Shown piece after piece: positions 42,238-42,328 of a stretch of 64,000 nt of DNA. The translations under genes and the position numbers were made by a program. This DNA is from Flectonema sp. DT1601. Taxonomy: Eukaryota. The DNA lies in NCBI GenBank assembly GCA_964019425.1, contig OZ025782.1, positions 310,001-374,000 of the forward strand. Direction: 5' to 3'. The notes beneath the pieces were generated by a model. The model was not told the origin of the DNA. It did not search any database and was given only the letters and a program-made list of their open reading frames with translations. Position 1 is the first letter of the stretch. Each line of letters opens with the position of its first letter.

Positions 42238-42328
42238 CTGGTTTCAGGGCTAAGATTTATTAAAAAAAACAATCTTTCTTCGGACCAATTCCCCTTACCC
42301 AGCCCTCTTCAGCGAAAAAAGCAAGGAA
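42238..42328 (-). ncRNA. Putative permuted hammerhead ribozyme, family E copy E1
   Basis: RNA: UUCCUUG CUUUUUUCG CUGAAGA GGGCU GG GUAAGGGG AA UUGGU C CGAAGAAAG [22 nt] AGCCC U GAA ACCAG. Predicted cut between 42283 and 42282. Confidence 0.65.

What the first reader, a model, noticed from the sequence alone, without database searches (positions are those of the whole stretch)
42238..42328. A second, sequence-distinct family (E) has the same permuted hammerhead architecture
SEEN: E1 minus strand reads P0a UUCCUUG(C) - Ia CUUUUUUCG - CUGAAGA - IIa GGGCU - GG - P0b GUAAGGGG - AA - IIIa UUGGU - C - Ib CGAAGAAAG - 22-nt linker - IIb AGCCC - U - GAA - IIIb ACCAG. It has the same X-Z-Y order, the same P0 helix and the same AA linker as family D, but different stem sequences and a GUC site. 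E2 (39577-39667) has Ia CUUUCUUCG and P0a CCCCUUAC, the perfect complements of E1's Ib and P0b. A fragment at 57191-57225 gives IIIb ACCAA. Caveats: E1 and the 57191 fragment have an extra U before G12, and E2 is decayed. INFERENCE: recurrence with different sequences makes chance unlikely and points to a ribozyme subclass.
Basis: partly seen in the sequence, partly recalled or inferred. Interest (0 to 1): 0.9.

Follow-up and report, generated by a model that had tools for sequence, protein, structure and literature searches.

The report
Rare scrambled hammerhead in diplonemid repeats
A short repeat in the nuclear genome of a diplonemid protist carries the pattern of a self-cutting hammerhead RNA whose three parts come in a rare scrambled order described in 2023 from only two soil sequences, so it is a new member of a known kind that likely rides on a small jumping element; cutting is untested.

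Summary
E1 (42238-42328, minus strand) has all hammerhead core bases and four helices in the order C-S-G. A scan for all six block orders found 4 hits in the window, all in this order (E1 and three family-D copies); 0 of 150 shuffles reached that level. The architecture is not new. It is the type-CSG hammerhead of Eckert et al. 2023 (PMC10085705), including the 8-bp P0 helix and the 2-nt AA linker, known from two sequences that cleave slowly in vitro. This scan also noted type CSG in another genome (e1-7368731). The new part is the setting: a diplonemid nuclear genome, with two sequence-distinct repeat families. D has target-site duplications; E is older and has none that I could find. E differs from the published pair by a 22-nt stem I-II linker, N7=A and one extra base in stem II's 3' strand. 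That extra U is absent in E2. Within E there is no double-sided covariation, and E1 has strong competing folds, so E1 may be slow or dead. No genome or reads were available to collect more copies.

The parts
42238..42328 (-). E1: type-CSG hammerhead, best-preserved E copy
42321..42328 (-). [quoted passage not shown]
42301..42321 (-). Block C: stem I 5' strand, CUGAAGA core (42312-42306), stem II 5' strand
42289..42298 (-). P0 3' strand and the AA linker
   Evidence: same layout in the published alignment
42274..42288 (-). Block S: stem III strand, GUC triplet (predicted cut 42283/42282), stem I 3' strand
42252..42273 (-). [quoted passage not shown]
42238..42251 (-). Block G: stem II 3' strand with one extra base (U42246, or a bulged C in the other register), GAAA, stem III strand
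42329..42380 (-). 5' part of the E repeat, shared with E2; holds a second GUC, a second GAAAC-like block, and a 13/17 inverted match to E1's 3' end
39577..39726 (-). E2: decayed copy (81% identity to E1 over aligned bases); block C intact, P0b and Ib damaged, G block with A-run expansion and no extra U
57575..57605 (-). E3 5' fragment (part of the upstream segment)
57191..57225 (-). E3 3' fragment (distal Ib, shorter linker, block G with the extra U); a D copy and local duplications lie between the two E3 pieces
54935..55124 (-). Family D copy, 190 bp, 17-bp target-site duplication, CSG hammerhead near its 5' end (comparison family)
24198..24390 (-). Family D copy, 193 bp, 13-bp target-site duplication (comparison family)
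57254..57448 (-). Family D copy, 14-bp target-site duplication with 1 mismatch (comparison family)
19108..19131 (-). 24-nt D fragment (block G) starting at the stop codon of the ORF at 19129-19863

Best explanation
E1 has the complete layout of a type-CSG (non-circularly permuted) hammerhead and is likely an ageing copy of a short non-autonomous retroelement in a diplonemid nuclear genome, whose source RNA would have cut itself after GUC. Shown: the three blocks, four helices, repeat nature and co-orientation with the gene cluster. Known from the published class: stems I-III form as pseudoknots around an ordinary hammerhead core, P0 holds stems I and II together, and the cut follows H17. Inferred: the ribozyme releases element RNA from the host's polycistronic transcript or from a tandem source copy, as in non-LTR retrozymes, and a reverse transcriptase from elsewhere in the genome pastes copies back. 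This context is seen directly only for sister family D (target-site duplications) and is extended to E by analogy. E1 itself is probably slow or inactive (about 40% that the 91-nt RNA cleaves detectably).
For:: 4 of 4 hits are CSG, 0 of 150 shuffles; published CSG, D and E1 share a 7-8-bp P0, a 2-nt linker (AA; CA in CSG-2), a 5-bp stem III with fixed G-C at 16.2 and U-A at 16.4, while pair 16.3 is U-A (published), A-U (D), G-C (E); both published CSG RNAs cleave at the predicted site, 0.004 and 0.026 per min; 3 of 3 full D copies (93-96% identical) have 13-17-bp target-site duplications and the same 3' end; 20 of 20 ORFs of 220 aa or more are on the minus strand, as are all D and E pieces; 17 of 17 dispersed repeat pairs are co-oriented; nearest named relatives of the window's HisA protein are Flectonema neradi (81%) and Diplonema japonicum (71%); animal non-LTR retrozyme units are about 150-300 bp and under 50% GC, like D.
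Against: No cleavage data. Only 3 E copies, 2 of them decayed; no double-sided change within E. No target-site duplication flanking E1, E2 or E3. The extra base next to G12 is best paired with A9 (-9.1 kcal/mol against -8.7 with U free and -2.0 for the G.U plus bulged-C register), which would block the core. E1's first 44 nt fold into a -20.7 kcal/mol hairpin that buries the core, against -6.0 for P0 alone, and the upstream segment can pair with block G. D copies hold sequence on both sides of the cut, so they were copied from uncut or rejoined RNA. No tandem source copy seen, and no reverse transcriptase domain in 21 ORFs scanned of the 44 listed. D and E show no significant primary similarity (257-440 of 1000 shuffles score as well), so common descent is not shown.
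Confidence: 0.65

Rival explanations
1. E descends from a working CSG hammerhead, but the subfamily that gave E1 and E3 was already catalytically dead; the extra U was a disabling change that let uncut RNA be copied.
For: The extra U is shared by E1 and E3, which also share 17 of 17 bases in the upstream piece, but is absent in E2. It pairs best with A9. The natural core insertions named in the passages of PMC3088659 that I read (after A6, after A13, near C3) do not include this place.
Against: All five stem differences between E1 and the other E copies keep pairing as G.U, although E1 was picked for being intact. Three of four D pieces also carry 2 extra bases in the same strand after three core-proximal pairs, so the extra base can be read as a shared bulge with a normal R10.1-Y11.1 pair.
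Confidence: 0.17
2. The RNA works as a swapped dimer or in trans: blocks C and G of one molecule cut block S of another, so no triple pseudoknot has to form.
For: The 2-nt linker joins helix ends that are far apart in the crystal structure, a difficulty that the published work notes for CSG too. Stem II of D at 55091 is self-complementary. Dimeric hammerheads are common in animal retrozymes.
Against: A fixed P0 and 2-nt linker in three families fit one compact fold. Published CSG monomer transcripts cleave during transcription; I saw no dilution test in the parts read.
Confidence: 0.08
3. E is a domesticated processing or decay signal: sense-strand copies between genes cut the polycistronic RNA, in the way SIDER2 retroposons trigger mRNA cleavage in Leishmania.
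For: All D and E pieces lie sense to the gene cluster, several within about 1 kb of a stop codon. Precedent seen in search listing only: PMC2943621.
Against: All 17 dispersed repeat pairs in the window are co-oriented, so the bias is not special to the ribozyme. E2 and E3 are decayed, and E1 lies in an 11-kb gap without long ORFs.
Confidence: 0.05
4. E is a miniature inverted-repeat DNA element or a plain hairpin repeat, and the hammerhead look comes from purine/pyrimidine tracts.
For: E1's two ends match 13 of 17 as inverted repeats; among 460 17-mers starting with TGGT only one unrelated one does as well. Ia also pairs with the purine-rich core.
Against: It does not explain CUGANGA, GUC, GAAAC, stem III and the AA linker in the published spacing. 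The inverted match is not kept in E2, there is no shared duplication, and orientation is not random.
Confidence: 0.04

Closest known systems
Type-CSG hammerhead ribozymes CSG-1 and CSG-2 (Eckert, Friedrich, Weinberg, Weinberg 2023, PMC10085705; read main text parts 1-6 of 8 and all 28 supplementary passages holding 'CSG')
   Same: [quoted passage not shown]
   Different: Published: two unique sequences from soil metagenomes, no host, 66 nt, 5-nt stem I-II linker, CUGAUGA, CGAAA. E1: diplonemid nuclear repeat, 91 nt, 22-nt linker, 8-9-bp stem I, CUGAAGA, one extra base before GAAA. The two published CSG descriptors require CGAAA, a CUGAUGA core and a linker of at most 8 nt, so they would miss E and D.
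Type-SGC hammerheads (HRIMA-1 and variant, 583 sequences; same paper)
   Same: CSG is a circular permutation of SGC: same cyclic order, same I-II helix, same short link from that helix to stem III. All four helices were validated there by compensatory mutants.
   Different: The 5' and 3' ends lie elsewhere, the stem I-II linker is typically 3 nt, and they come from metatranscriptomes tied to hairpin-ribozyme RNAs.
Metazoan non-LTR retrozymes (PMC7761336; passages read)
   Same: Short, AT-rich, non-coding, hammerhead-bearing genomic repeats of about 150-300 bp that need a borrowed reverse transcriptase.
   Different: They use type I hammerheads in tandem copies and make circular RNAs. Here single units with CSG hammerheads were seen; no tandem copy or circle is shown.
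L1Tc/ingi-clade retroposons with HDV-like ribozymes and SIDERs of trypanosomatids (PMC4035085, PMC2943621; search listing and start of abstract only)
   Same: Euglenozoan retroposons that use a self-cleaving RNA to free their RNA from host co-transcripts.
   Different: A different ribozyme class, at the very 5' end. In D the cut lies about 60 nt inside the element.

Membership tests
Type-CSG hammerhead | Blocks in 5'-to-3' order C, S, G | tested here: met
   definition
Type-CSG hammerhead | Core CUGANGA, GAAA and UH all present | tested here: met
   E1: CUGAAGA, GAAA, GUC
Type-CSG hammerhead | Stems I, II and III flanking the core | tested here: met
   8-9, 5 and 5 pairs
Type-CSG hammerhead | Stem II directly adjacent to G12 | tested here: inconclusive
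   One extra base: either U unpaired next to G12 or G.U plus a bulged C; energy favours the first by 6.7 kcal/mol as a free duplex. Absent in E2.
Type-CSG hammerhead | [quoted passage not shown] | tested here: met
   P0 of 8 pairs then AA; published structure line
Type-CSG hammerhead | Covariation within the family | tested here: inconclusive
   Within E only one-sided changes to G.U; double-sided differences only between E, D and the published pair, which do not align significantly by sequence
Type-CSG hammerhead | Site-specific self-cleavage after H17, lost with a G5 change | not testable with these tools
   needs a bench assay
Classical hammerhead types I, II, III | Cyclic order C-G-S (no pseudoknot in the core) | tested here: not met
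   No CGS, GSC or SCG hit in the window; no Rfam match at gathering score or near E1 at E up to 10. Circularising the RNA would not change the cyclic order.
Non-LTR retrozyme / SINE-like retroposon | Short non-coding dispersed repeat | tested here: met
   3 E and 4 D pieces in 64 kb
Non-LTR retrozyme / SINE-like retroposon | Target-site duplications | tested here: inconclusive
   Present in 3 of 3 full D copies; none found at the ends of E1, E2, E3, which are older
Non-LTR retrozyme / SINE-like retroposon | Tandem ribozyme-bounded units and circular RNA | not testable with these tools
   No genome and no sequencing run listed; no tandem unit in the window
MITE | Terminal inverted repeats and short duplication shared by all copies | tested here: not met
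   13/17 inverted match in E1 only; no shared duplication

The most novel reading that the evidence does not exclude
Diplonemid genomes harbour several families of retrozyme-like elements driven by active type-CSG hammerheads, giving this permutation its first host and job: a slow, switchable cut that yields a unit-length, probably circular RNA that is reverse-transcribed into new sites. E adds a form with a long stem I-II insert, a stem II bulge and a built-in off-switch fold.
Probability: 0.35. Interest if true: 0.78.

Novelty: new member of a known kind. Interest (0 to 1): 0.55.

Why it matters
The authors who described type CSG call its evidence weaker because it rests on two similar sequences with little covariation and no host. 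Two further sequence-distinct families that keep the same helix, linker and stem III pattern support the fold as a real, repeated solution. They also place it in a eukaryote genome next to retroposon hallmarks. A genome with many copies would allow a proper covariation test, show which deviations are tolerated, and make the biological role of this permutation testable in a culturable protist group. I found no paper reporting type CSG in a eukaryote or a hammerhead in diplonemid nuclear repeats (searches; open-access library only).

Tried and rejected
Whole genome: none held, so copies could not be collected and no covariance model was built. Sequencing runs: none was listed. Rfam: 0 matches at gathering score over the window; 11 weak matches at E up to 10 in 39400-42900, none a ribozyme. 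A tighter pattern gave 25 metagenome, 1 viral and 15 prokaryote-genome loci. None had all four helices at the D/E level; the nearest, L253 and its twin L280, has stems of 5, 3 (6 with a bulge), 5 and a P0 of 5, and reads like a purD coding frame (recalled). The two published CSG sequences were not among the hits. An E-specific viral scan gave 1 unrelated locus and a further pattern gave 0. An rRNA origin was considered because some pattern hits look like 23S rRNA (recalled), and rejected: no Rfam rRNA match, and those hits lack stem III. The idea that the E3 fragment begins at the cut site was dropped because nhmmer extends the match 5' of the site. Reading the upstream segment as a second, type III hammerhead fails: its core is not CUGANGA in any copy. 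A literature search for an insertion between 11.1 and G12 gave one off-topic listing; PMC3334697 is not held. Earlier-notes look-ups by place and by sequence gave nothing.

Full report
Observation. Stem I has 8-9 pairs, stem II 5, stem III 5 and P0 8, with CUGAAGA, GUC and GAAA in place. E2 and the 57191-57225 fragment are as described. I scanned both strands for all six orders of the three hammerhead blocks. There were 4 hits, all in the order C-S-G: E1 and family D at 57421, 55091 and 24360. In 150 block-wise dinucleotide shuffles, loose CSG cores occurred 0.013 times per 64 kb and none reached the D/E level. Rfam has no model that finds these.

What it is. The order X-Z-Y is the type-CSG non-circular permutation of Eckert et al. 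2023 (PMC10085705; main text parts 1-6 of 8; supplementary passages). That paper found two similar CSG sequences in soil metagenomes. Both cleaved at the predicted site, at 0.004 and 0.026 per min, and the authors rate the evidence for CSG as weaker than for SGC. Their structure line has an 8-bp helix directly before stem I, a 2-nt linker, a 5-bp stem III and a 5-nt link from stem I to stem II. Across the published pair, D and E1, stem III keeps G-C at 16.2 and U-A at 16.4, while 16.3 is U-A, A-U and G-C in turn. D and E do not align significantly by sequence (257-440 of 1000 shuffles score as well), so this is recurrence of a fold and not proven descent. The two published CSG descriptors demand CGAAA, a CUGAUGA core and a linker of at most 8 nt, which explains why such copies would have been missed.

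How E differs. The link from stem I to stem II is 22 nt in E1 and 15 nt in the E3 fragment; in E1 it can close a weak hairpin that would keep the two stems close. N7 is A. One extra base lies in the 3' strand of stem II. It can be drawn as a U next to G12, or as G10.1.U11.1, two G-C pairs and a bulged C. As free duplexes the first scores -8.7, the second -2.0 and an A9-U pair -9.1 kcal/mol. In the active fold the first form must also pay a bulge cost of about 3.8 kcal/mol (recalled Turner value), which narrows the gap, but the A9-U pair remains an inhibitory competitor. Three of four D pieces carry two extra bases in the same strand after three core-proximal pairs, so a shared bulge is a fair reading. 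E2 has no extra U. The natural core insertions in the passages of PMC3088659 that I read do not include this position.

Against activity of E1. The five stem differences between E1 and the other E copies are one-sided changes to G.U, so E has no internal covariation. The first 44 nt fold into a -20.7 kcal/mol hairpin in which Ia pairs with the core, against -6.0 for P0 alone; this would form before Ib is made. The four ribozyme helices sum to about -39 kcal/mol of stacking before loop and pseudoknot costs, against -26.2 for the best nested fold of 97 nt, so the active fold is possible but not assured. With the upstream segment the best nested fold (-50, z -2.1) also buries block G.

Context. 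The window is intron-poor with long T tracts, and its HisA protein is closest to Flectonema neradi (81%), Diplonema japonicum (71%) and D. ambulator (68%), so the host is a diplonemid. All 20 ORFs of 220 aa or more lie on the minus strand, as do all D and E pieces; 17 of 17 dispersed repeat pairs are co-oriented. The three full D copies are 190-195 bp, 93-96% identical, end alike, and have 13-17-bp target-site duplications: a young SINE-like retroposon. They hold sequence on both sides of the predicted cut. In 2 of 3 copies the three bases after the 3' end are ACT, and the longest copy starts with ACT, a weak hint of a circular or tandem template (earlier notes on other elements suggested looking for this). 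E1 and E2 are 81% identical over about 145 bp, from a GUC-bearing start near 42380 to the end of stem III, with no duplication found at the ends. At 57.2-57.7 kb a D copy sits between two E pieces amid local duplications. No reverse transcriptase domain was found in 21 of the 44 listed ORFs that I scanned. The D. papillatum genome paper lists many retrotransposon ORFs and does not contain the word ribozyme (PMC10161547, passages).

Mechanism. Most likely the source RNA folds the three blocks into an ordinary hammerhead core through pseudoknotted stems, braced by P0, and cuts after GUC (by membership in the tested class). The cut would free element RNA from polycistronic or tandem transcripts for copying by a borrowed reverse transcriptase, as proposed for non-LTR retrozymes (PMC7761336, passages). 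The fold and repeat nature are shown; cleavage, circles and the partner enzyme are inferred. Rivals are a dead subfamily, a dimer, a domesticated processing signal and a MITE-like hairpin; each is weighed in its own section.

Elsewhere. The patterns were narrow, so this is not proof of absence. Paper searches found no report of type CSG in a eukaryote; figures of the supplement were not visible, only their text.

Verdict. Real, and a new member of a known but very rare ribozyme type, in a new host and a mobile-repeat setting. Interest 0.55.

Noticed in passing
window 42329-42380 and 39672-39726 (minus), 57575-57605: The 5' part of E holds a second GUC and a second GAAAC-like block whose flanks can pair as a 5-bp stem III with different pairs from the main one, around a non-canonical core. 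It may be the relic of another hammerhead or an off-switch; in E1 it is a 13/17 inverted match to the 3' end.
   Followed up: partly
window 42455-42570: A GC-rich structured stretch 75 nt upstream of E1: on the plus strand two crossing helices of 6-7 bp (a pseudoknot), a cUUCGg hairpin and a 9-bp hairpin; z -2.0 on plus, -0.5 on minus. It does not fit hammerhead or HDV order by eye and has no Rfam match.
   Followed up: partly
window 54935-55124, 24198-24390, 57254-57448: Family D copies have 13-17-bp target-site duplications and one shared 3' end; two duplications start with the same three bases that begin the longest copy, hinting at a circular or tandem template.
   Followed up: partly
window 57449-57698: A 91-bp local duplication and a 41-bp piece copied from the neighbouring PH-domain gene (56897-56937) are interleaved with E and D pieces, like template switching during insertion or repair.
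   Followed up: partly
window, whole: At least five other small dispersed repeat families (for example 34905/44344/52218, 7807/44154/55739, 21768/36713/54391/55379, 23864/24674, 24408/35622), all pairs co-oriented.
   Followed up: no
window 61172-64000 (minus): An open frame of at least 943 codons running off the window end, with 108-bp and 252-bp tandem repeats; not scanned against Pfam.
   Followed up: no
L137, L157, L185: Three IMG/VR contigs carry near-identical, clean type III hammerheads preceded by a GC-rich hairpin.
   Followed up: no
window 19108-19131: A 24-nt D fragment begins exactly at the stop codon of the ORF at 19129-19863.
   Followed up: no
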